Shown one piece after another: positions 6,232-57,092 of a stretch of DNA of 64,000 nucleotides. Made by a program: the position numbers and the translations under genes. The stretch is from a virus (Duplodnaviria; Caudoviricetes), in IMG/VR virus record IMGVR_UViG_3300027996_003878. One strand, 5' to 3'. Every line of letters begins with the position of its first letter. The first letter of the stretch is position 1. Below the pieces are notes generated by a model. That model saw only the letters and a list, made by a program, of their open reading frames with translations. It ran no database searches and was not told where the DNA came from.

Positions 6232-6567
6232 TTACGAATTACTAAAATTCGCCTGCCTTTTAAGCCTATCTTCCATCTTTTTTCTCAGCTTTTCCTCTTT
6301 CTTACGCTGCTTTTTACCCCACTCACCCGATTTAACCTGAGCAGCTCGAAGATCCATAATTCTTTTACGCTCTTGCTGTTCTCTAAATTTTCTTCTCTTT
6401 TTAGCAGAAGGCTTTTCGTAACTCTGCCTGTCTCTAACTTGATTTATAATTTTTTCTTTTTGAACTATAGTTCTGAATTGCCTCATGGCATCCTCAGAAC
6501 GATCTTTATAAATCTTTACCTCAACACATTTGAACGTATCAAGATAGCTATCATCAAATTTATCCAT
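6232..6567 (-). CDS. rpsU: Ribosomal protein bS21 with N- and C-terminal extensions
   Basis: VKIYKDRSEDAMRQFRTIVQKEKIINQVRDRQSYEKPSAKKRRK matches the bS21 pattern (EDALRRFKR...G...E.R.R..YEKPS..RRRK). Confidence 0.88.
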   Translation of the reverse strand: MDKFDDSYLDTFKCVEVKIYKDRSEDAMRQFRTIVQKEKIINQVRDRQSYEKPSAKKRRKFREQQERKRIMDLRAAQVKSGEWGKKQRKKEEKLRKKMEDRLKRQANFSNS

Positions 6568-13577: not shown

Positions 13578-15077
13578 TTAACATCTCTTTTTTCTAACTT
13601 CTCTTTTTTTATTGTTTAATCTAAAATAAACGCTATCAACTATTTGCCTCCTGATTCGTTGCAAGAATACAAGACTATCTATCTCATAATGTGATGGAAT
13701 TCTAAAATGAGTTACATGAACCGGAGTTCCCGGCAACACAGTGTCATTCATAGATATCTTAGAAAAACTATACTCTTTTACAGCGCCCATTAAAGATTCC
13801 TCAGCGTCTAGGCTCTTTACATCTATAAGCCTACCAATAAAACAAGGCCCATAATCCTTAAACTTTCTACCACCAATATATTTTTCTTCGGTTTTGTTTG
13901 GAATTGTTCTTTTTTCAGTGACATGAGCCTTAAACTCACTGATGCCTAAAAACAATGCTAAATTAGGATCTGTTAAAGAGACAATATCAATTGTTTCGCC
14001 ATTTTTTACAATAGAGAATGGCAAGTAATTTTCAACTAATTTTGAATATTCTTGAAAAATTCTTGCATGGATAGGAAAATCTGCCGTTTGATGTTTTAAA
14101 TGAACAAGATAAGAAATCATTTCTTCTGGAAAGTTTGCAAGCATTATCTTAAATGCTTCGTACATCAACTTCTTCTTCACAAAGGTAGACTTGTTCTGAT
14201 TTCTTGATATTAATCTAATTTGATTTTCGATGACATCTTTAAGGACATCATGCTCACGTATGAATCTTTGCTTATGCTCCAACTGATCGTCAGCAAAAAC
14301 GATTTTATAATCTGTTAAAGTATCCTCAAGCGTAAAATCGCCTCCGTCACCTTGGTTTAAACTGAAATTAAGGCTTAAAATATTTCTTGAAAATTGCTTA
14401 GTGGGGTGACTTTTTTTATCTAAATTATAACTTGCCCCGCAGTAAGAGCAATTAATGTAAGGGCAAGAGACACCAAACTCTGTCGCAGATGATTCAGGAA
14501 TAAACCGGACGCATTCTGGACAGCGATAGCCTTTCTTGGAATGCTTAACAAAGGCCCTATGAAGCATGAGTCTAGACTCCAGAGAGGCCTTTTCTTCAAC
14601 AGATGTAACTCTATCAATTTTATTCGAAATGATATTTATTTCTTTCGCACACTCCTTACACCGAAAATACTTTCCATCTTTATCAAGCCTCTCAATTTTT
14701 CCATAACACCTACAAGCGGGACATATAGGGGCAGTGACTTTTTCTTGCGTATTATTTTCTTTGTAAATTTTTATTGGAAGAATATTAATACATTTTAATA
14801 AGTATAAATTTAAATCTCTTCCGTCCCTCCAATGCTGTAATTTACAAAAGAAAACATAAAGAGCATTTCTAAGCTCTTGCTTTGCTCTTGCTCGAAACGA
14901 GCGTAACAAACTTTCCGGTACCTCGTCCGACAATTTTAAATTGTAAGCTTTGTATATCAAACGATCTATTTTCGACTTATACAATTCAAAAATATCATTT
15001 AATATCCAATTATCTATGTCGTTTTCAGTAATTTTATCGATAATTTGATTAAGCTTGAAAAAAATATTGTCAACCAT
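13578..15077 (-). CDS. Large Zn-ribbon protein with sigma70-like segments (probable start MVDNIFF at 15077)
   Basis: CPAC/CKEC/CPEC/CPYINC pairs; LSLNFSL..GDGGDFTLEDTL resembles sigma region 3.2; a terminator lies over the longer 15176 start. Confidence 0.7.
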   Translation of the reverse strand: MVDNIFFKLNQIIDKITENDIDNWILNDIFELYKSKIDRLIYKAYNLKLSDEVPESLLRSFRARAKQELRNALYVFFCKLQHWRDGRDLNLYLLKCINILPIKIYKENNTQEKVTAPICPACRCYGKIERLDKDGKYFRCKECAKEINIISNKIDRVTSVEEKASLESRLMLHRAFVKHSKKGYRCPECVRFIPESSATEFGVSCPYINCSYCGASYNLDKKSHPTKQFSRNILSLNFSLNQGDGGDFTLEDTLTDYKIVFADDQLEHKQRFIREHDVLKDVIENQIRLISRNQNKSTFVKKKLMYEAFKIMLANFPEEMISYLVHLKHQTADFPIHARIFQEYSKLVENYLPFSIVKNGETIDIVSLTDPNLALFLGISEFKAHVTEKRTIPNKTEEKYIGGRKFKDYGPCFIGRLIDVKSLDAEESLMGAVKEYSFSKISMNDTVLPGTPVHVTHFRIPSHYEIDSLVFLQRIRRQIVDSVYFRLNNKKREVRKKRC

Positions 15078-15141
15078 GCTTTTGTCTGTGATTAAAGGCA
15101 GATTAATTAACCGAACGACGCTTTTTAGGCTAATTAGAAGC

Positions 15142-15173
15142 AAAAAAAAGCCGAGATATGACCTATCTCGGCT
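15142..15173 (-). terminator. Rho-independent terminator after the FtsK-like gene
   Basis: 10-bp stem AGCCGAGATA/TATCTCGGCT, 5-nt loop, U-tract on the minus strand. Confidence 0.8.
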
Positions 15174-15239
15174 CATTGTCGTAACTCGACTAAAGCATAA
15201 TGCACGTATAACAAATACACAAATTCATTATTTTTTCAT

Positions 15240-17857: not shown

Positions 17858-17904
17858 ATTTGTAATAATTAAATGTTAAAGATCTTCACGACATAAAAAG
17901 AAAA

Positions 17905-17936
17905 ATAAAAAACCCGCCAAATTGGCGGGCTTTTTT
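17905..17936. terminator. Bidirectional Rho-independent terminator
   Basis: CCCGCCAA/TTGGCGGG inverted repeat flanked by A- and T-tracts. Confidence 0.85.
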
Positions 17937-17959
17937 ATGACTAATATTTTAAGCTTAAA

Positions 17960-22596: not shown

Positions 22597-23328
22597 TCAA
22601 AATTTATAAGGAGTTAAAAATCCAATTTCTTCGGTAAATTGCCTCGCCATTTTCTCTTCAAGACTTTGCGCCTTGTACCCAAGCTTATGGTACAATCCGT
22701 ATTTATAACTAAGCGCATGATAAAGCTCATGAGCAAAAGCATGATGAAACTCATTCACTCTAATTTTCGCCTTCCCAAACCGAATTACGGTGCGATGTTT
22801 ATTCAACACGTCATTTCTTACATAAAGATGGCTTGATTGCCTAGAATAATAACCCCAAAGATTACCTTTACCCAACGATTTTGCCCTCTCACGAAAGCGA
22901 TACTTATAATCGTTCAAATTTCTGGCAGATCGACCTCCATCATAACTAGCAAAGGGAAGAAGAGAGACATCTATTCTTGAAGGGAGTTCATATTTATATT
23001 TATTAGACGAAACTCTTTTAATATTCAATCTAACTTTGTATTTTTTGATAAAGTGGGCAACCACATAGTTACAAGTCGCATTTAACTCTTTAACACTATG
23101 ATACGTTCTCTTTGAAATATTATACTCAATATTTGACGGACGCCACTCCACAATACGTACATTCTTACACAAATATTTAAGTTTAATTGTTTTTCGCAAA
23201 CGCTCCGATGGCATTGTCTCCTCCATACAGAAAGACTTTGACTTAAAAGTACAAGCATCCAATGCAAAAGAGTTATTTGAAAAAGAAATAACACTCAAAG
23301 CTACAAATAAAAAATAAAAAATTCTCAT
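22597..23328 (-). CDS. Secreted zincin-like metalloprotease candidate
   Basis: Signal-peptide-like N-terminus; FAHELYHA (HExxH). Confidence 0.5.
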   Translation of the reverse strand: MRIFYFLFVALSVISFSNNSFALDACTFKSKSFCMEETMPSERLRKTIKLKYLCKNVRIVEWRPSNIEYNISKRTYHSVKELNATCNYVVAHFIKKYKVRLNIKRVSSNKYKYELPSRIDVSLLPFASYDGGRSARNLNDYKYRFRERAKSLGKGNLWGYYSRQSSHLYVRNDVLNKHRTVIRFGKAKIRVNEFHHAFAHELYHALSYKYGLYHKLGYKAQSLEEKMARQFTEEIGFLTPYKF

Positions 23329-30803: not shown

Positions 30804-31559
30804 TTGAAAAATATATATTTGTTTCTTTTTTTATTATTATTTTCATTTGGATGTTGCATTAATAAAACTAAGTCTCCTGAGGTAAAGCCGCCGAAATTAA
30901 GTCAGCAAAGCAGTGAAGTATCTGAAGCTCTAGCTTTAAAGTATCAAAACTCATCTGTGGCGTTAATTGTAAATTTGCCAAACACCTACAAAACCTATTG
31001 TAGCGGTGTGTGGGTTTCTAAGTACACAATGGTCACAGCCAAACATTGCGTTGAGCTTGAAGGATTGCTTGAAGGAGAGGATGTAATAGGAATGCCTTTA
31101 AGCTTAATAAGCTACAACGAATTCAGAGCCACTTTTCCACCAAAAAAGCGCGCAAAAGCCTTCAGCGCTATTGTTAGTGGCATATCTGAAGGCTCCGACA
31201 TCGCTCTTCTTACTACAAAAGAAGAAGTTGCTCATGAGACAGTAAGGGTGCCTGAAAGGCCAATCGCCGTTGGAGGGCCAGCTTATATAGTCGGAAGCAC
31301 CGCTGGCTTTCCATTTACGTTTATGAAGGGCGTTGTTTCTCAGATAAGAAAAATGAATATTTTTAAAAATAAGCCACCAATGAAAACGGTTCACATAACC
31401 GCTCATGTATGGTTTGGGAATTCAGGAGGCCCTGCTATTGACTCAAACGGAAACCTGCTGGGAATATGCTCTTTTATGATGAGGGCTCCAGGAGCCACAT
31501 TCTTCGTACACAGAGACGAGGTAATAAAGTTATTAGATAAATACGAAATAGAATTCTAA
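30804..31559 (+). CDS. Trypsin-like serine protease, probable lipoprotein
   Basis: TAKHC, SDIALL, GNSGGP catalytic triad; N-terminal FLLLFSFGC; AGGAG SD. Confidence 0.92.
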   Translation: MKNIYLFLFLLLFSFGCCINKTKSPEVKPPKLSQQSSEVSEALALKYQNSSVALIVNLPNTYKTYCSGVWVSKYTMVTAKHCVELEGLLEGEDVIGMPLSLISYNEFRATFPPKKRAKAFSAIVSGISEGSDIALLTTKEEVAHETVRVPERPIAVGGPAYIVGSTAGFPFTFMKGVVSQIRKMNIFKNKPPMKTVHITAHVWFGNSGGPAIDSNGNLLGICSFMMRAPGATFFVHRDEVIKLLDKYEIEF

Positions 31560-32788
31560 TCTTCATCGCTATAAGAATAAAACTCTAAAATCTTATCAGA
31601 AATTGATTTTAGAGTTTTTTGTTCAATTTTCCTAACGCCCTCCCGACTTAGATCTAACATCTCAGCGACTTTAACAAGGCTCGCGCATTCATTCTCAGAG
31701 TTAAATCCAAATCTTTGTTGGATAATAAACTTCTGCCTGTCATTTAATTGATTTAAAATAAAATTAACATCATCAATTAAACGCTTTTTCAGCAATGAGC
31801 CGTCTGGACTCTGAAATACATTGCTCTGAAGGGAGTCAGAGCTGCTTTTAAACAATGCAACATTTGTTGAAAATCCTTTTCCGAAGTCTTCTGCTTTATT
31901 TGGATGCTCCTCAAAGGAAGAATAGTTGAAATTATTTAAAACAACGTTTATAATGTCTTTTGTATTTCCTGTAATTTCTTTATATTCTTCTTCATTTAAA
32001 GTTCTGTTCTTTAATAGTAAAGATTTCTTATTAAGTTTTTTATATTTACGTCTTTTATTTTGAACATTAATTGGAAACCTTATTGTAGAATTCATATTAT
32101 CTATAAATCTATTTATAAAAAACTTAATCCAGTAAACGGAATATGTTCCAAAGGAATACCCTAATCTATAGTTATATTTATCAACCGCTCTCATTAAGCC
32201 GAAGATTCCCTCTTGAATCAAATCATCTACAGAAACATTAAGGCTATTTCTGTAGATTTTATAAGCAGACATTCTTACAAGTCCAATATGACTCTTTACA
32301 AATTTTTGTTTTTTATTAATTATATCTTTTAAGATATAATTAATTTCTTTCTTCCACTCTGAAAAGAATATAGTATTTTTTATCTTATTTATAGTCTGAG
32401 TGTAAATTTTATTATCGCTGTAGCTTATATTTGAAGAAAATATATTTTTATCAATAAGCCTAATCCATTCTGAAAAACCATCAGATCGGTTTATTTTTGA
32501 AACAAAGCTTGAGACTAACATACTAAAAGTACAAATACTGTAGTCGCAATTATTATAGATAATATCTTTTAATTGATTATAATCTTTAGATTTAAATAAC
32601 TCATCTGCATCAATAAATAATTCTTTTCTTTTGCTGTTGTTAATATCAGCTACTAGCTTTTCATTCAAATCTTTGAAAAAGCAAACCTGCAAAGGCTTGA
32701 ATGAAAATAGCCTCAAGCATAAATCTTGATAAGATTCTTCAAGGTTTACGAAAAAGGTATTAGTATCACTAGCGCTCGCAACAACCAT
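31556..32788 (-). CDS. RNA polymerase sigma70 factor, RpoD-like regions 2-4
   Basis: DLIQEGIFGLMRAVDKY...FGTYSVYWI, TIRFP, SLVKVAEMLDLSREGVRKIE. Confidence 0.93.
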   Translation of the reverse strand: MVVASASDTNTFFVNLEESYQDLCLRLFSFKPLQVCFFKDLNEKLVADINNSKRKELFIDADELFKSKDYNQLKDIIYNNCDYSICTFSMLVSSFVSKINRSDGFSEWIRLIDKNIFSSNISYSDNKIYTQTINKIKNTIFFSEWKKEINYILKDIINKKQKFVKSHIGLVRMSAYKIYRNSLNVSVDDLIQEGIFGLMRAVDKYNYRLGYSFGTYSVYWIKFFINRFIDNMNSTIRFPINVQNKRRKYKKLNKKSLLLKNRTLNEEEYKEITGNTKDIINVVLNNFNYSSFEEHPNKAEDFGKGFSTNVALFKSSSDSLQSNVFQSPDGSLLKKRLIDDVNFILNQLNDRQKFIIQQRFGFNSENECASLVKVAEMLDLSREGVRKIEQKTLKSISDKILEFYSYSDED

Positions 32789-33122: not shown

Positions 33123-33196
33123 TAGGGCGGGTCAGACTTGAACTGACAACCAACGGTTTATGAGACCGTTGCTCTAACCAATTGAGCTACCGCCCC
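33123..33196 (-). tRNA. Elongator tRNA with CAU anticodon (Ile2 if lysidinylated, otherwise Met); CCA not encoded
   Basis: Cloverleaf GGGGCGG/CCGCCCT-A, D arm GCTC/GAGC, anticodon arm ACGGT-CTCATAA-ACCGT, T arm GTCAG-TTCAAGT-CTGAC. Confidence 0.95.
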
Positions 33197-43200: not shown

Positions 43201-44037
43201 TTAATCTTCTAAAACATCATATAATATATATTTATTTACTGCGCGCTCTATTTCTTTTTTATTTAAAAAGTCATATCTTTTTAATAACTTAATTATATCG
43301 TTTGTAGCTATATTTTTAAATCCATCAATACATTTAGATTTAAAATTGTCGCCGCTTAGTATTTTTAAAATTGATTCACATATATATAATGTCTTTTCTT
43401 CAATGCTATTAAGAAAAGACATTTCTTTAAAAAATTGCATCGTTGACCAGTGCAAAAAAGAATTTACTGTTGGCCCCCATTTAGATCCGTTTAGGATTGT
43501 ATCTTTTTTGCATTTTTTTAATAATTTACTAATATCTTTTTTTTCTAAAATATTGATAATGTATGGCTCAAAGCCTTTGCAATGTCTGAATAATTGAGTT
43601 GAGCTTACAACTTTCACATATGATGACTTCCACAATCGAGTGTCAGGCAGATCAACTAAGGCATAACCTCCGTCTGTTCCAAGTCTTTCGCGCAAATTTA
43701 TATTACTGCCATCACTCTTGATGTCAAAAGAAATCATAAAATCAATATCAAATCCGCTCTTAGTAGGTTGCAGATTTGACCGTCCTAATATTGTTCTATT
43801 TTTTAAATTAATACTAGGGCTGTCCTTTTTATTTTTGATATTTTTAAGGTCTACTTTTGATTTAAATATAAAATTAACCCCAATAATAAAATGTTTTTCA
43901 TAGAGTGAAGGTGCATGTATTTTGAAATTATAATTTGAAAGTTTTATGTTTTTTAAACTTTGATAAAAAATATCTCGAATTGCTTGACCCTCTTCGGTCA
44001 AAAGCATTCTGTTATAAAGCTTAAGATAATAGCTCAT
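43201..44037 (-). CDS. Shared-C-terminal-domain family protein
   Basis: C-terminal ~60 aa aligns with 41738 and 42500. Confidence 0.75.
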   Translation of the reverse strand: MSYYLKLYNRMLLTEEGQAIRDIFYQSLKNIKLSNYNFKIHAPSLYEKHFIIGVNFIFKSKVDLKNIKNKKDSPSINLKNRTILGRSNLQPTKSGFDIDFMISFDIKSDGSNINLRERLGTDGGYALVDLPDTRLWKSSYVKVVSSTQLFRHCKGFEPYIINILEKKDISKLLKKCKKDTILNGSKWGPTVNSFLHWSTMQFFKEMSFLNSIEEKTLYICESILKILSGDNFKSKCIDGFKNIATNDIIKLLKRYDFLNKKEIERAVNKYILYDVLED

Positions 44038-44053
44038 ATTTACTTAAATATAA

Positions 44054-44479
44054 TTAATTGAAGCTCTTAGATGATCTTGGAGGCTCCTGAGAGTTTAGAT
44101 TAACTGTTTGAAATAAGGAGCTTTGGAAAACAACATTAGATTCTAAATTCTTTTTACCCTGACAGGAGATAACTTCGATGGGAACAAGGGATTCATAGGG
44201 ATCTTTTGAAAATAATTCAGCTAGTGGAATTATGTTGCTGGAATTCAACTCTTTATCTTCTAAAATAGCACACAGGACCAGCTTATTTTTTTCTGACTTC
44301 TGATCTTTACACAGAACAACCGAGAGACCGCTATCAGCAGAAAGCTTATTCAAAAGTCTTAAGAAGCTATGTAAATGCGGTTTTTTGTCATTGATGTCTT
44401 GCACAGTGAATTTCCTTTGCGGGGTACCTAGATACAAGGTAGACCGTTGTAGTTGTATGTGGTTACACAGTAAGCACAT
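44054..44479 (-). CDS. Hypothetical protein
   Basis: 141 aa ORF. Confidence 0.6.
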   Translation of the reverse strand: MCLLCNHIQLQRSTLYLGTPQRKFTVQDINDKKPHLHSFLRLLNKLSADSGLSVVLCKDQKSEKNKLVLCAILEDKELNSSNIIPLAELFSKDPYESLVPIEVISCQGKKNLESNVVFQSSLFQTVNLNSQEPPRSSKSFN

Positions 44480-44508
44480 ACTTAATCAGTGTCAAATTGA
44501 TATCAAAA

Positions 44509-44679
44509 CTACAGAAATCTCTTTAAATCAGATTTTCGAAACCTCGAAGGGGCTCCTAAGAGATCATCCTCTTTGCCCTCCGAATGTCCTATTTGATAAA
44601 AATGGTCGTTTGGAAGTTTAACATCATTCCCTTCGTAACCATCAATATAACCGACAAGATATCTCGCAAATGGCGTCAC
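44509..44679 (-). CDS. Small hypothetical protein (56 aa, GTG start)
   Basis: Hand translation: MTPFARYLVGYIDGYEGNDVKLPNDHFYQIGHSEGKEDDLLGAPSRF... Confidence 0.5.
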   Translation of the reverse strand: MTPFARYLVGYIDGYEGNDVKLPNDHFYQIGHSEGKEDDLLGAPSRFRKSDLKRFL

Positions 44680-44749
44680 GTAGGTATGTCATTTTATAGA
44701 CATTAAAATTATTTTTAAAGTGACAAAGTTGTAGGGGGGTATAAACAAA

Positions 44750-44929
44750 TTATTTGTTTGAAATATTTTTAGCAACATTTTGAATATATTTTATATTCCA
44801 ATCAATTTTCTCTGATATTTCATTGTTCATAAATAAGTATAAAACATCATTCCAAGAGTCAATTACATCAGCAATATTGTATAGATTTATTGATAAATTG
44901 CGCGCTACTTGTTTTTTATTTTTATGCAT
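44750..44929 (-). CDS. Small hypothetical protein (59 aa)
   Basis: Hand translation: MHKNKKQVARNLSINLYNIADVIDSW... Confidence 0.45.
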   Translation of the reverse strand: MHKNKKQVARNLSINLYNIADVIDSWNDVLYLFMNNEISEKIDWNIKYIQNVAKNISNK

Positions 44930-44937
44930 TTTTAATT

Positions 44938-45135
44938 TTAATTAATGTTAAAATTGTTTGGAATCACATAAAAGCCGTAACATTTACTTTTGTCATGAAG
45001 ATCACGATAACGGTAATGGCAAGATATATTAGTTTTATCATTACCTTTTAATTTTTTAATAAATTGTTTTGTAAAAGAAATATTTGTCTTGTGTCCACAT
45101 AAGTCGCATTTCATCGTAATGATAAAGTTATCCAT
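44938..45135 (-). CDS. Small Cys-containing hypothetical protein
   Basis: CDLC, CH...C. Confidence 0.55.
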   Translation of the reverse strand: MDNFIITMKCDLCGHKTNISFTKQFIKKLKGNDKTNISCHYRYRDLHDKSKCYGFYVIPNNFNIN

Positions 45136-45140
45136 TTTAC

Positions 45141-45416
45141 TTAATGCGATATTGTTTTCTTGTTGGTATCTTTCTCATCTGCGATTTGCGCCTCTTCATC
45201 AAGACGACTGGCGATGCTGCCTGATTTTTTGTGGAGAGAGGATACTGACTCTTTTTGCCAAGGCGCTGTCAAAGCCCAGCGAAAATCTTGGATCGCTCTT
45301 GATAATCCTGGGTGGTTTTGAGATTTTGCCTGTCTCTCTAAGTGAATAAATTTTTCACGCGCCATTTCCAATTCTGAAAAAATCTCATTTACTTTTTGTG
45401 TCCAGTTTTTTTTCAT
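45141..45416 (-). CDS. Hypothetical protein
   Basis: 91 aa ORF. Confidence 0.6.
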   Translation of the reverse strand: MKKNWTQKVNEIFSELEMAREKFIHLERQAKSQNHPGLSRAIQDFRWALTAPWQKESVSSLHKKSGSIASRLDEEAQIADEKDTNKKTISH

Positions 45417-45442
45417 TATAAATACTACTTAAATTAAAAAAT

Positions 45443-45545
45443 TAAATAAAAACCCTGGTGAGTGAAGTTATAAAAATAAACAGCCGGAAGGAGGGCAGCT
45501 AAAATTAAAAAGGCCACTCACCAGGGTGCTGCAAACGAAAAGGAT
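45443..45545 (-). ncRNA. Candidate structured small RNA or leader with an anti-Shine-Dalgarno loop
   Basis: Perfect 13-bp outer stem (45452-45464 / 45515-45527), inner hairpin with loop CCCUCCUUC, 3' U-tract, upstream promoter. Confidence 0.6.
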
Positions 45546-45551
45546 AAATCA

Positions 45552-45579
45552 ATAATAATCAGGGGCCTTAAAGTGTCAA
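45552..45579 (-). promoter_or_regulatory. Sigma70-type promoter
   Basis: TTGACA-N16-TATTAT. Confidence 0.65.
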
Positions 45580-45676
45580 GCGCTTACTAAAGTTTTTATT
45601 TTTAAATTAATTAAAATATCTTTAATACTTTTGAAGTAAGCATTTTTGTATATTACTGGTTATATTATTATTTGCT

Positions 45677-46414
45677 ATGGTGGACTCTAAATCTAGAAGC
45701 TTTTTAAAAGCAATAACGTGGAGAATTTTTGCGGTCATTCTTTTAATGTTAGTTTCGTTTGCTTTAACTCGCAGCATTAAAACGGTAACCTATATCACTT
45801 TACTTTATCATTCAATTCAAATATTTATGTTTTACTTACACGAACAACTTTGGAATTATATAAAATGGGGCAAAACAAGAGGCTTGTTTGTTCAAATGAC
45901 TGGCTTGAGCGGAGCTGGCAAGACTACTTTAGCTCAAGCGCTTGCGGAAAAATTAAGAAAGCAAGGCTACAAAATAGAAATAATTGACGGCGATGAGTAT
46001 CGTGAGGGGATTTGTAAGGACCTTGGTTTTTCAAAGCAAGATCGTTGCACAAATATACGACGTCTAGGTTTTGTTGGTAAGGTTTTAGCAAGAAATAATG
46101 TAATCGCAATTATGTCTGCAATTAATCCTTATGATGAAGTTAGAAATGAGCTAACTTCTATGGGAGAATTTGTAAGAACCGTGCATGTTAAATGTGACAT
46201 TGAAACGCTAAAAAAGCGTGATACAAAAGGGCTTTATGCAAGGGCTCTACTGCCTGATGGAGATCCCAATAAGGTCCACAATTTTACAGGCATATCTGAT
46301 CCATTTGAAGAGCCTACTAGCGCAGATCTCACAATTGAGACCAACAAAGAAGAAATGGAAGCTTCTTTGAAGAAGCTTCATGAATTTGTTCTAAGAGAAG
46401 CGGGCTCTAAATAA
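45677..46414 (+). CDS. cysC: Adenylylsulfate (APS) kinase fused to an N-terminal DUF2061-like membrane domain
   Basis: SRSFLKAITWR N-terminus; TGLSGAGKTT, IDGD, LGFSKQDR..NIRR, KGLYARA, FTGISDPFEEP. Confidence 0.93.
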   Translation: MVDSKSRSFLKAITWRIFAVILLMLVSFALTRSIKTVTYITLLYHSIQIFMFYLHEQLWNYIKWGKTRGLFVQMTGLSGAGKTTLAQALAEKLRKQGYKIEIIDGDEYREGICKDLGFSKQDRCTNIRRLGFVGKVLARNNVIAIMSAINPYDEVRNELTSMGEFVRTVHVKCDIETLKKRDTKGLYARALLPDGDPNKVHNFTGISDPFEEPTSADLTIETNKEEMEASLKKLHEFVLREAGSK

Positions 46415-46416
46415 AA

Positions 46417-47607
46417 TTAATTAACGTTATTTATATTATTTTTACTTGGAACATCATTGATTGTCTGATGTCTGCCTGGGCCTACAGAAACCAAGCAGAC
46501 GTCAATATTTAATTCTTCTGAGATATATTTGATAAATAATTTTGCATTTTTTGGAAGATCGTTAAAGCTTTTCACATTTGTAATGTCTTCCTTCCAACCA
46601 GGAAACGTAGTAAAGCTATTATCTCCAATAACTTTTGGTAAATTATCTAAGCAAGGATATTTATCATTATTATAATCGGTCGCCACTTTGATTTTATCAA
46701 AGCCAGACAAAACATCTAATTTTGTTATGGCTAGCTTTGTAATTCCATTAACCTCAACCGCATATCTCATTAAAGGCATATCCAGCCATCCCACTTTGCG
46801 AGGTCGGCCTGTAACAGAGCCAAACTCATGACCAACGGTTTGTAGGTGCGATGCAAGCTCTCCTTTTATTTCGGATGGGAACGGACCCTCGCCTACTCTT
46901 GTCACATAGGCCTTTGTTATTCCGATAACCTCGTCTATTAAGGTTGGCCCAACACCAGCTCCAGTACAGGCCCCGCCAGCGGTAGCGTTAGAGGAAGTTA
47001 CAAAAGGGTAAGTTCCAAGGTCAACGTCTAGCAAGGTGCCTTGAGCGCCCTCAAACATCACCTTTTTATTTTCTTTTATATTGTTATTTATAATTCTTGG
47101 AATATCAGCTTTTGAAAATCTTTTCAAATTATCAATAACTTCTTGTTTGAAATTATAATTATTATTTTTAATAATATCTAGTACACGAATTCCATTTCGA
47201 CTTATTTTATCTTCGTAGGTAGGTCCAATGCCTTTTTTCGTAGTTCCAATTTTAGAATTTTTATTTATGTCACTTTCAATATGCTTTGGAAGAATGACGT
47301 GAGCGCGATCTGACAACATCAACCTACCCTCAAGCGTTAAGCCTAACCTTTCAAGGCCCTTCACCTCTTCGTAAAAGACGTTAGGGTCAATGACCATTCC
47401 ATGACCCAAAATGCAAGTAGTATGAGGATGAAGTATGCCAGACGGTATTAATCGCAAGATAGTCTTTTCACCATCCACATTTAATGTATGACCTGCATTA
47501 GGGCCTCCGGCGTATCGAACTACAATGTCGTAATCCTTTGCATAAAAATCAACGATTTTGCCCTTACCTTCGTCACCAAAAGCACAACCTACAAAAACAG
47601 TATTCAT
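46417..47607 (-). CDS. purA: Adenylosuccinate synthetase
   Basis: GDEGKGK, GGPNAGHT, GTTKKGIGP, EGAQGTLLD.DLGTYPFVTSS, TRVG.GPFP, VTGRPR, TKLD. Confidence 0.97.
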   Translation of the reverse strand: MNTVFVGCAFGDEGKGKIVDFYAKDYDIVVRYAGGPNAGHTLNVDGEKTILRLIPSGILHPHTTCILGHGMVIDPNVFYEEVKGLERLGLTLEGRLMLSDRAHVILPKHIESDINKNSKIGTTKKGIGPTYEDKISRNGIRVLDIIKNNNYNFKQEVIDNLKRFSKADIPRIINNNIKENKKVMFEGAQGTLLDVDLGTYPFVTSSNATAGGACTGAGVGPTLIDEVIGITKAYVTRVGEGPFPSEIKGELASHLQTVGHEFGSVTGRPRKVGWLDMPLMRYAVEVNGITKLAITKLDVLSGFDKIKVATDYNNDKYPCLDNLPKVIGDNSFTTFPGWKEDITNVKSFNDLPKNAKLFIKYISEELNIDVCLVSVGPGRHQTINDVPSKNNINNVN

Positions 47608-47661
47608 ATCTTTGAAATGAATAAAGGCAAGGTAGACTCGATGATTTAAGTTAAAAAAGAA

Positions 47662-47829
47662 TTATTTTTTCTTAAGTTTTTTACTGTGAGCAAGTAAATC
47701 GCCTAGCGAGACTTTTAATACTTTTTCATCATATTTAGAATTATTTATAAAGTCGCCTTCGATCTGAGTATCTGAACTTTTAATCTCATTGTTGATTAAT
47801 TTTTCGTCGCTAATGTCTTTATTTTTCAT
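47662..47829 (-). CDS. Small hypothetical protein (55 aa)
   Basis: Hand translation: MKNKDISDEKLINNEIK...SLGDLLAHSKKLKKK. Confidence 0.4.
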   Translation of the reverse strand: MKNKDISDEKLINNEIKSSDTQIEGDFINNSKYDEKVLKVSLGDLLAHSKKLKKK

Positions 47830-47943
47830 GATTAAAATTTTTTATTCTTTTTTTCTTTTAGACGCATCTTATTATATATCAAAAAGTCAGCTCTTTATCG
47901 TTACAATTAGTAATTTAAAAAAAATAAAAAAACAATCATTAGA

Positions 47944-47972
47944 TTGACTTTTCAAGTGTTCAGTATTAACGT
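47944..47972 (+). promoter_or_regulatory. Sigma70-type promoter
   Basis: TTGACT-N17-TAACGT upstream of 48024. Confidence 0.5.
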
Positions 47973-48023
47973 AAAAGTACTGTTTTTATTTTTAATATTT
48001 ACATTAAAAAAAATGGAGATTTT

Positions 48024-48239
48024 ATGAAAGAGTGGGGCGGTAAGTGTCAACGATGTTGTGGCGAAAGTAACACACACGTTATGAGTATGTTTAATGAAGA
48101 TCTTATTTGTGAAGAATGCAAAGAAAGTGAAAGAAATCACCCTCAGTATAAGCGAGCTTGTATTGAGGAAATTAAGGCCATTATGAATGGCAATATGAAT
48201 TATAAAGGTATGTTTGCAAATGTTAAATTTGAGAATTAG
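48024..48239 (+). CDS. Small Zn-finger-like phage protein
   Basis: CQRC...MSMFN.D.IC.EC...E..HP.Y. Confidence 0.7.
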   Translation: MKEWGGKCQRCCGESNTHVMSMFNEDLICEECKESERNHPQYKRACIEEIKAIMNGNMNYKGMFANVKFEN

Positions 48240-56855: not shown

Positions 56856-57092
56856 TCATTCTTCTTGAATGCTTACCCATCCGCCTTCATAAAGATCAAT
56901 GGCAGTCCGTTGATAAGAACCCTGCAACTTCCAGACAATGCCAGTGTCAATTAATTCTTGAAAAAAATCTACAACATCTTCAAAATGCTCTTCAAAACTC
57001 ATCTTGCCTGATTCAAAATCTCTAATTTTTGTAATAATGCTTTTGTTAATCATTTTGCCTCCTGTAATTTGGTATAATACCATTATAACCAC
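56856..57092 (-). CDS. Small phage hypothetical protein (start probably MINKS)
   Basis: FFQELIDTGIVWKLQGSYQRTA pattern common in phages. Confidence 0.65.
   Translation of the reverse strand: MVIMVLYQITGGKMINKSIITKIRDFESGKMSFEEHFEDVVDFFQELIDTGIVWKLQGSYQRTAIDLYEGGWVSIQEE

What the first reader, a model, noticed from the sequence alone, without database searches (positions are those of the whole stretch)
45443..45579. Small structured RNA displaying a perfect anti-Shine-Dalgarno sequence in a hairpin loop
Seen: a minus-strand promoter TTGACA-N16-TATTAT (45579-45552), then a perfect 13-bp GC-rich stem (ACCCUGGUGAGUG / CACUCACCAGGGU) followed by UUUUAUUU. The stem encloses two U-rich linkers and an inner hairpin UAGCUG-[CCCUCCUUC]-CGGCUG. 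The inner stem needs two G-U pairs and folds only on the minus strand, matching the promoter direction. The loop is complementary to GAAGGAGGG and mimics the 16S 3' end (CCUCCUU). Established: C-rich-loop sRNAs can pair with SD sequences to block translation. Inference: a phage RNA that broadly silences SD-led host mRNAs while sparing SD-poor phage genes, or a decoy for anti-SD-binding proteins such as bS21 (also encoded here). Alternatively it is an attenuator for ORF 45416.
Basis: partly seen in the sequence, partly recalled or inferred. Interest (0 to 1): 0.8.

Follow-up and report, generated by a model that had tools for sequence, protein, structure and literature searches.

The report
Promoter-terminator RNA unit, jumbo phage
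An uncultured marine giant phage carries a strong bacterial-type promoter followed at once by a very stable terminator hairpin, so it probably makes a roughly 100-base RNA just in front of a block of unknown genes. The eye-catching ribosome-like loop varies between natural strains, and nothing yet shows that it silences host messages.

Summary
On the minus strand, TTGACA-N16-TATTAT (45579-45552) is followed by a perfect 13-bp stem (14 bp with a G-U pair), an inner hairpin with loop CCCUCCUUC, and a U-run. This ends 20 nt before the ATG of a 91-aa ORFan.

Both signals exceed chance:
- Near-consensus sigma70 sites number 9, against 3.05 in shuffles.
- A GC-rich stem of 9 bp or more plus a U-run occurs at 2 loci, against 0.075 in shuffles.

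The fold is strand-specific. The two natural stem substitutions keep pairing only on the minus strand.

The anti-SD interpretation gains little:
- No Rfam family matches, and no homologue turned up in anything searched.
- No complementary target in the window beats shuffled controls.
- No RNA data cover the element.
- In one of the four natural haplotypes, seen in two samples, the CCUCC core reads CUUCU.
- The element is no more conserved than its flanks (about 2% divergence).
- The inner stem alone is weak.

Best reading (0.45): a promoter-proximal terminator or leader unit, like lambda PR'-6S-tR', that releases a short RNA and gates a 4-kb ORFan block. A trans-acting anti-SD sRNA remains possible (0.2). 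The scan logged this same stretch once before (first-reader note only). Interest is modest.

The parts
45574..45579 (-). -35 hexamer TTGACA
   Evidence: One of 9 sites in the window matching at least 11 of 12 positions, against 3.05 expected.
45552..45557 (-). -10 hexamer TATTAT, 16-nt spacer. The inferred transcription start is near 45545.
   Evidence: The start site is inferred from the usual 7-nt distance and is not mapped.
45528..45548 (-). U-rich single-stranded 5' tail of the predicted RNA
   Evidence: Unpaired probability is 0.8 or more at nearly all positions.
45514..45527 (-). 5' arm of the outer 14-bp stem
   Evidence: Invariant in all haplotypes.
45481..45501 (-). Weak inner hairpin: 6 bp with two G-U pairs in the reference. 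U45497 is C in haplotypes H2 and H3.
45487..45495 (-). Apical C/U loop CCCUCCUUC (anti-SD-like). C45491 is U in haplotype H3.
   Evidence: unpaired probability about 0.9.
45452..45465 (-). 3' arm of the outer stem. A45459 is G in H2 and H3, giving U-G on the minus strand but C-A on the plus strand.
45436..45451 (-). U-run directly after the stem (intrinsic-terminator tail). Its length and one base vary between haplotypes.
45141..45416 (-). 91-aa ORFan, 20 nt after the U-run, with no SD. It is the first gene of a roughly 4-kb block of ORFans that has no convincing promoter of its own.

Best explanation
This is a promoter-proximal terminator (leader) unit. A strong sigma70-type promoter starts a transcript near 45545. 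After a 21-nt U-rich tail, the transcript folds into an extended hairpin: a 14-bp GC-rich base, an AU-rich interior and a weak apical hairpin. A U-run follows directly.

Most RNA polymerases would stop there and release an RNA of about 95-110 nt. The fraction that reads through, whether spontaneously or with a phage antitermination factor, supplies the only evident transcription for the 91-aa ORFan at 45416 and the ORFan block behind it. The architecture is that of lambda PR'-6S RNA-tR' in front of the late operon.

On this reading the anti-SD-like loop is a feature of the reference haplotype, not a proven functional core.

Shown: the sequence signals, their excess over chance, strand-specific pairing, and the position relative to the genes. 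Inferred: transcription, termination, read-through control, and any function of the released RNA.
For: Promoter:
- 11 of 12 match with a 16-nt spacer.
- It belongs to a class enriched about threefold over shuffles and lying almost entirely on the coding strand.
- A sigma70-family factor is encoded in the window.

Terminator signature:
- A perfect 13-bp GC-rich stem followed by U5AU3. Such a signal occurs only twice in 64 kb, against 0.075 expected.
- The phage uses plain GC-hairpin-plus-U-run terminators elsewhere, for example 17895-17953.

Strand:
- G-U pairs exist only on the minus strand.
- Across haplotypes, the minus-strand MFE is -31.7 / -31.2 / -31.2, while the plus strand falls from -30.4 to -27.9.
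- 20 of 20 pairs are kept in 4 haplotypes, with two one-sided changes.

Gating:
- The neighbouring gene is divergent (kinase, 45677+), so nothing reads in from upstream.
- No -35/-10 pair fits between the hairpin and the ATG. The only candidate is a TATAAT overlapping the ATG itself, with a -35 match of 3 of 6 or worse.
- The downstream genes are all ORFans.
Against: - No transcript data exist for the element.
- The interior between the arms is 48 nt, far longer than the 3-8-nt loops of canonical terminators, so termination efficiency is uncertain.
- No antiterminator gene or alternative (antiterminator) fold was found. The nascent-RNA alternative structure is not better than shuffles (z = -0.8).
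- No homologous locus exists to show that the arrangement is conserved.
- The element is no more conserved than its flanks: about 2% divergence in both.
Confidence: 0.45

Rival explanations
1. A stand-alone, trans-acting phage sRNA whose exposed C/U loop pairs with Shine-Dalgarno regions (GGAGG) of particular host or phage mRNAs. Alternatively, the loop mimics the 16S 3' tail as a decoy for bS21, IF3 or similar factors.
For: - A strong promoter plus a terminator and no ORF between them is the standard design of an sRNA gene.
- The loop is unpaired with probability about 0.9. It is the only CCUCC in intergenic minus-sense RNA of the window.
- The phage's genes are SD-poor, and the phage encodes bS21.
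- Loop-borne anti-SD motifs are a known sRNA principle: the UCCC loops of S. aureus Rsa RNAs (PMC2790875) and the CCUCCUCCC loops of the alpha-r14/NfeR1 family (PMC10746234).
- The C-to-U loop variant could still pair with GGAGG through G-U.
Against: - The CCUCC core is polymorphic in nature (CCCUUCUUC in L041 and L043), with no sign of extra constraint on the loop.
- There is one copy of the motif, not several.
- No Rfam match even at E <= 10, and no homologue.
- The best complementary sites in the window (-24 kcal/mol) are no better than those of shuffled seeds (-22 to -27).
- GAAGGAGGG-like sites are not enriched.
- The host and its SD usage are unknown.
- A single sRNA cannot titrate all SD-led mRNAs (inference).
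Confidence: 0.2
2. A 5'-UTR hairpin that does not terminate. It would act as a processing or stability element for the ORFan operon mRNA, for example as an RNase III site of the T7 or lambda type, with lower stem, internal loop and upper stem.
For: - The whole element is a 34-nt-arm imperfect inverted repeat, 71% complementary, long enough for RNase III.
- It sits in the 5' leader of the operon.
- A large internal loop between two stems resembles T7 early processing sites (own knowledge).
Against: - The U-run placed exactly at the stem end is the hallmark of termination, is rare by chance, and is not needed for processing.
- The middle of the hairpin is predicted to be open.
Confidence: 0.1
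3. Leader-peptide attenuation. A 17-codon ORF runs from GUG at 45521 to UAA at 45470-45468 and includes Pro-Pro at the 'anti-SD' codons CCU-CCU. A translating ribosome would melt the 5' arm and cover the 3' arm, so translation or stalling would set read-through.
For: - The ORF exists in frame. Its stop lies 2 nt before the 3' arm of the 14-bp stem, 3 nt before the perfect 13-bp arm (sequence reading).
- Proline-codon leader peptides control attenuation in mgtL and mgtP (own knowledge).
Against: - Both natural substitutions inside it are first-codon-position and non-synonymous (Cys to Arg, and Pro to Ser which destroys Pro-Pro).
- The GUG start has no SD.
- A 17-codon ORF in 113 nt is unremarkable.
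Confidence: 0.04
4. Not an RNA element of the minus strand. It would be either a DNA-level inverted repeat (protein-binding site, recombination scar) or a plus-strand feature: the strong SD GGAGGG followed after 8-9 nt by AUU and a 28-codon ORF, or an SRP-RNA-like apex CCGGAAGG.
For: - The plus strand folds nearly as well in the reference.
- GGAGGG on the plus strand is a perfect SD.
Against: - The A-to-G variant makes a C-A mismatch on the plus strand and costs 2.5 kcal/mol there, but nothing on the minus strand.
- There is no plus-strand U-run or upstream promoter and no canonical start codon.
- No SRP or other Rfam match at E <= 10.
- The repeat is single-copy.
Confidence: 0.08

Closest known systems
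Lambda PR' - 6S RNA - tR' unit (Q-dependent late antitermination); more loosely the lambda oop RNA unit
   Same: - A strong constitutive sigma70 promoter is followed within about 100-200 nt by an intrinsic terminator.
- A short non-coding RNA is therefore the default product.
- The operon behind depends on read-through.
   Different: - No Q-like gene, qut site or promoter-proximal pause signal was identified.
- The RNA is about 100 nt, not 194 nt.
- The terminator is an extended 76-nt hairpin.
- The genes behind are ORFans, not late genes.
- There is no sequence similarity.
Anti-SD-motif sRNAs: alpha-r14/NfeR1 family (CCUCCUCCC in three loops, PMC10746234) and the S. aureus RsaE/RNAIII class (UCCC loops, PMC2790875)
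   Same: A C-rich motif complementary to the SD is displayed in an unpaired hairpin loop of a small terminator-ended RNA.
   Different: - There is a single motif copy, and it is polymorphic between strains instead of ultraconserved.
- No Rfam membership.
- No predicted targets.
- It is phage-encoded and sits directly in front of an operon.
Phage antisense/RBS-blocking RNAs (P22 sar, P1/P7 c4, DicF of Qin)
   Same: Short phage or prophage RNAs made from a dedicated promoter-terminator pair that occlude ribosome-binding sites.
   Different: Those have a defined complementary target encoded nearby. No such target is present in this 64-kb window.
PeSL (promoter-early stem-loop) cassettes of T4-like phages (lead from earlier scan notes; Arbiol et al. 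2010, PMC2839356, not read here)
   Same: An early-type promoter is associated with a stem-loop in a region of small variable ORFans.
   Different: - PeSLs are repeated many times per genome, with the stem-loop upstream of the promoter.
- This element is single-copy, with the hairpin downstream.

Membership tests
Any Rfam 15 family (including alpha-r14, suhB/MmgR, bacterial SRP RNA, riboswitches) | Covariance-model score at or above the gathering threshold | tested here: not met
   The whole window at gathering threshold gives only tRNA-Met at 33123-33196. The local search at E <= 10 gives at best 15.5 bits against cut-offs of 41-95, for example suhB at 13 bits versus 41.
Intrinsic (Rho-independent) terminator | GC-rich stem immediately followed by a U-tract on the transcribed strand | tested here: met
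   A 13-bp perfect stem with 8 GC pairs is followed by U5AU3. The signal occurs at 2 loci against 0.075 expected.
Intrinsic (Rho-independent) terminator | Compact hairpin (loop about 3-8 nt) | tested here: not met
   There are 48 nt between the arms. The standard scan did not list it for this reason. The interior is only partly structured.
Intrinsic (Rho-independent) terminator | RNA 3' ends at the U-tract | not testable with these tools
   No RNA holder was listed, and the laid contigs do not cover the element.
Sigma70-type promoter | -35/-10 hexamers with 16-18 nt spacing, above the chance frequency, oriented with the genes | tested here: met
   The match is 11 of 12 with a 16-nt spacer. The window has 9 such sites against 3.05 +/- 1.7 expected, with 0 of 100 shuffles as high and 8 of 9 on the minus strand.
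Anti-SD-motif trans sRNAs (alpha-r14 / RsaE type) | C-rich anti-SD motif unpaired in a loop | tested here: met
   The loop CCCUCCUUC has an unpaired probability of about 0.9.
Anti-SD-motif trans sRNAs (alpha-r14 / RsaE type) | Motif conserved while the surrounding stems vary | tested here: not met
   Only 4 near-identical haplotypes exist. The loop core changes C to U in one of them, seen in two samples, while the stems keep all their pairs.
Anti-SD-motif trans sRNAs (alpha-r14 / RsaE type) | Identifiable mRNA targets with SD-region complementarity | tested here: inconclusive
   No phage site beats shuffled seeds. The host genome is unknown, so host targets could not be examined.
Lambda-type Q/PR'-tR' antitermination unit | Promoter, short leader, terminator, then a dependent operon | tested here: met
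Lambda-type Q/PR'-tR' antitermination unit | Q-like antiterminator protein and qut/pause site | not tested
   Only 64 kb of about 296 kb was available. No antiterminator family appeared among the proteins scanned.
PeSL cassettes | Many near-identical copies flanking small genes | tested here: not met
   The element is single-copy in the window by pattern and by covariance model.

The most novel reading that the evidence does not exclude
A giant phage that already remodels translation initiation carries its own bS21 and, according to unchecked scan notes, IF3, plus mostly SD-less and partly leaderless genes. The novel reading is that it also makes an abundant small RNA displaying a copy of the 16S anti-SD tail. 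This RNA would either mask the few strong SD sequences of the host, such as an rpsU-type autoregulatory SD, or titrate a factor that binds the anti-SD tail. That would be the first viral 'rRNA-tail mimic'.
Probability: 0.1. Interest if true: 0.8.

Novelty: new member of a known kind. Interest (0 to 1): 0.33.

Why it matters
If the unit works as proposed, it is a clean example in an uncultured marine jumbo phage of gene-block gating by a promoter-proximal terminator, and a probable abundant phage small RNA. Such RNAs are almost unstudied in giant phages.

The more exciting idea, a viral mimic of the ribosome's anti-SD tail working alongside phage bS21, would link RNA-level and protein-level takeover of translation initiation. 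At present it rests only on a 7-nt identity that is polymorphic in nature.

Tried and rejected
- Rfam at gathering threshold and at E <= 10: nothing.
- Whole-genome tools: no genome is held for this window.
- INPHARED blastn of 44000-48000: no match.
- IMG/VR: the outer-stem pattern gave 0 hits and the 91-aa protein gave 0. The inner-hairpin 19-mer gave 5 hits, all inside coding sequence of unrelated contigs with 60-70% GC, which is chance.
- The 717-aa core protein found no close relatives.
- Metagenome contigs with the exact promoter 28-mer: 0 hits.
- Covariance model R1, searched over the window, 21 IMG/VR loci and five whole phage records: only the query itself and ordinary terminators.
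- Synteny route: relatives of the APS kinase are at most 67% identical and sit in co-directional operons without this intergenic region. The 91-aa ORF has no relatives.
- RNA evidence: no RNA holder was listed. Two 'RNA?' sediment runs hold only short, low-depth contigs in the kinase gene and at 43.7-44.0 kb, and none over the element. This says nothing about expression.
- Host inference: PurA is at most 48% identical to scattered phyla. There is no Bacteroidota-type TAnnTTTG promoter bias. The host remains unknown.
- Antiterminator alternative fold of the nascent RNA: not better than shuffles.
- Retron, CRISPR-repeat mimic, MITE, tRNA-like: rejected on anatomy. The interior is too short, there is no RT or transposase nearby, the element is single-copy, and ARAGORN was negative.

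Full report
**Context**

No whole genome is held for the window. Its proteins occur on many public metagenome contigs, the longest 296,258 bp. Earlier scan notes, unchecked by me except where stated, describe an uncultured marine jumbo phage of about 296 kb.

In the window I confirmed several phage-type genes:
- PHROG hits to FtsK-like, ParB-C and HNH proteins and to a sigma factor.
- A bS21 homologue at 6232-6567.
- A sigma70-family protein at 31556-32788.

The element lies in the 260-bp divergent intergenic region between two genes. One is a DUF2061-APS-kinase gene (45677-46414, plus strand). The other is a 91-aa ORF with no family and no relatives (45141-45416, minus strand). Behind that ORF lies about 4 kb of further ORFans with low GC.

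**Observation**

The minus-strand RNA folds at -31.7 kcal/mol (z about -6, no shuffle as good). It has a 14-bp base stem, an open AU-rich interior and a small apical hairpin whose loop carries CCCUCCUUC.

The promoter is one of nine sites in the window matching at least 11 of 12 positions. Shuffles give 3.05 +/- 1.7, and none of 100 reaches nine. Eight of the nine lie on the main coding strand, mostly with 16-nt spacers.

A perfect GC-rich stem of 9 bp or more followed by a U-run occurs at only two loci, against 0.075 expected. Ordinary short terminators of the same type are used elsewhere, for example at 17895-17953. The promoter and the terminator-like signal are therefore both more than chance.

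Weaker points:
- The inner hairpin by itself is marginal (-5.0 kcal/mol, 10 of 200 shuffles as good).
- CCUCCUU occurs in the window at exactly the chance frequency: 5 observed against 5.5 expected.
- Its placement in the apex of the strongest hairpin is what is unusual. It is also the only CCUCC in intergenic minus-sense RNA.

**Strand and natural variation**

The element is found, mostly 100% identical, in contigs from many samples. Four haplotypes exist.

Relative to the reference:
- H2 and H3 change the inner-stem U45497 to C, turning U-G into C-G.
- H2 and H3 also change the outer-stem A45459 to G, turning U-A into U-G. On the plus strand this would be a C-A mismatch.
- H3, seen in two JGI samples, also changes loop C45491 to U, so the loop reads CCCUUCUUC.
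- H4 only lengthens the U-run.

All 20 pairs are kept in all four haplotypes, with two one-sided changes and no double (compensatory) change. Minus-strand stability is unchanged (-31.7, -31.2, -31.2), whereas the plus strand loses 2.5 kcal/mol.

This is modest but consistent evidence for a minus-strand RNA structure. The element is nevertheless no more conserved than its surroundings. The variant strain differs by 2.0% over 6.7 kb. The 113-nt RNA has three substitution sites and the other 147 intergenic nt also have three.

The loop substitution hits the CCUCC core. G-U pairing with GGAGG would survive, so this weakens the anti-SD idea but does not refute it.

**Search for relatives and for a family**

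- Rfam gives nothing at gathering threshold or at E <= 10.
- A covariance model of the element (R1) finds only itself in the window, in 21 IMG/VR loci and in five whole phage records.
- Pattern and protein scans of IMG/VR, INPHARED and metagenome contigs found no homologue.
- Relatives of the kinase are at most 67% identical and are not syntenic.

The element is therefore specific to one phage species. No deep covariation test is possible.

**Targets and translation context**

Phage gene starts are SD-poor: 57 of 101 have no 4-mer SD and 11 have a match of 5 nt or more.

No site in the window pairs with the loop region better than with shuffled seeds, and GAAGGAGGG-like sites are not enriched.

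The host is unknown. PurA's best cellular matches are at most 48% identical and scattered over phyla. There is no Bacteroidota-type promoter signal, while TTGACA is strand-biased, 29 against 14.

Background from the literature:
- bS21 sequesters the anti-SD tail in Bacteroidia ribosomes (PMC7797042, PMC9976891).
- Large bS21-encoding phages have been described (PMC9723584).
- Neither fact links this RNA to bS21.

**Mechanism**

The neighbouring upstream gene is divergent. No acceptable -35/-10 pair fits between the hairpin and the ATG. The only -10 there overlaps the ATG itself and has a poor -35. P45579 is therefore the only evident promoter for the ORFan block, and its transcript must pass the hairpin and U-run.

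The most economical reading is a promoter-proximal terminator or leader unit:
- Default termination gives an RNA of about 95-110 nt.
- Read-through, whether basal or factor-dependent, expresses the block.
- This matches lambda PR'-6S-tR' (own knowledge).

I found no significant alternative (antiterminator) fold and no antiterminator gene in the part of the genome available. The control step is therefore inferred.

A stand-alone anti-SD sRNA is not excluded, and the two readings are not mutually exclusive, since the terminated leader could itself act in trans. The RNase III, leader-peptide and plus-strand/DNA readings are less likely for the reasons given under rival explanations.

**Verdict**

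The element is a new member of a known kind and of modest interest. Its value would rise sharply only if a discrete RNA and an SD-dependent or bS21-dependent effect were shown.

Noticed in passing
window 48226-48120 (minus strand): A second near-consensus promoter (TTAACA-N16-TATAAT) is followed at once by two small hairpins with weak U-rich tails. It runs antisense to a 71-aa plus-strand ORF (48024-48239) that has a GGAG SD. This is a candidate antisense RNA unit.
   Followed up: no
window 15149-15173 (minus strand): This is the only other perfect GC-rich stem of 9 bp or more plus U-run in the window. It begins right at the annotated ATG (15176) of the 532-aa ORF 13578-15176. It is probably the terminator of the FtsK-like gene upstream, in which case the ORF start is set too far upstream.
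   Followed up: no
window 23362-23328 (minus strand) and 57109-57082: Near-consensus sigma70-type promoters have -10 boxes ending only a few bases before, or overlapping, the annotated ATG (22597-23328 and 56856-57083). This is consistent with the leaderless starts that earlier notes reported elsewhere in this genome.
   Followed up: partly
window 46417-47607 (minus strand): The phage adenylosuccinate synthetase is a canonical PurA (PDB PurA chains at E about 1e-105), not a PurZ-like enzyme ('PurA-like' 7vf6 only at 9e-23). It gives no hint of a 2-aminoadenine genome. It is at most 48% identical to any cellular PurA found.
   Followed up: partly
window 43201-44479; L001, L041: The ORFan block behind the element varies between strains. 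The 141-aa ORF has a 116-aa form and the 278-aa ORF a 268-aa form. One short contig (L007) lacks about 80 bp at the kinase/PurA junction.
   Followed up: no
window 45622-45777 (minus strand): Some public gene calls shorten the kinase to 195 aa and call a 51-aa ORF on the opposite strand. The DUF2061 match at residues 10-60 and the fused relatives show that the 245-aa call is right and the 51-aa ORF is spurious.
   Followed up: yes
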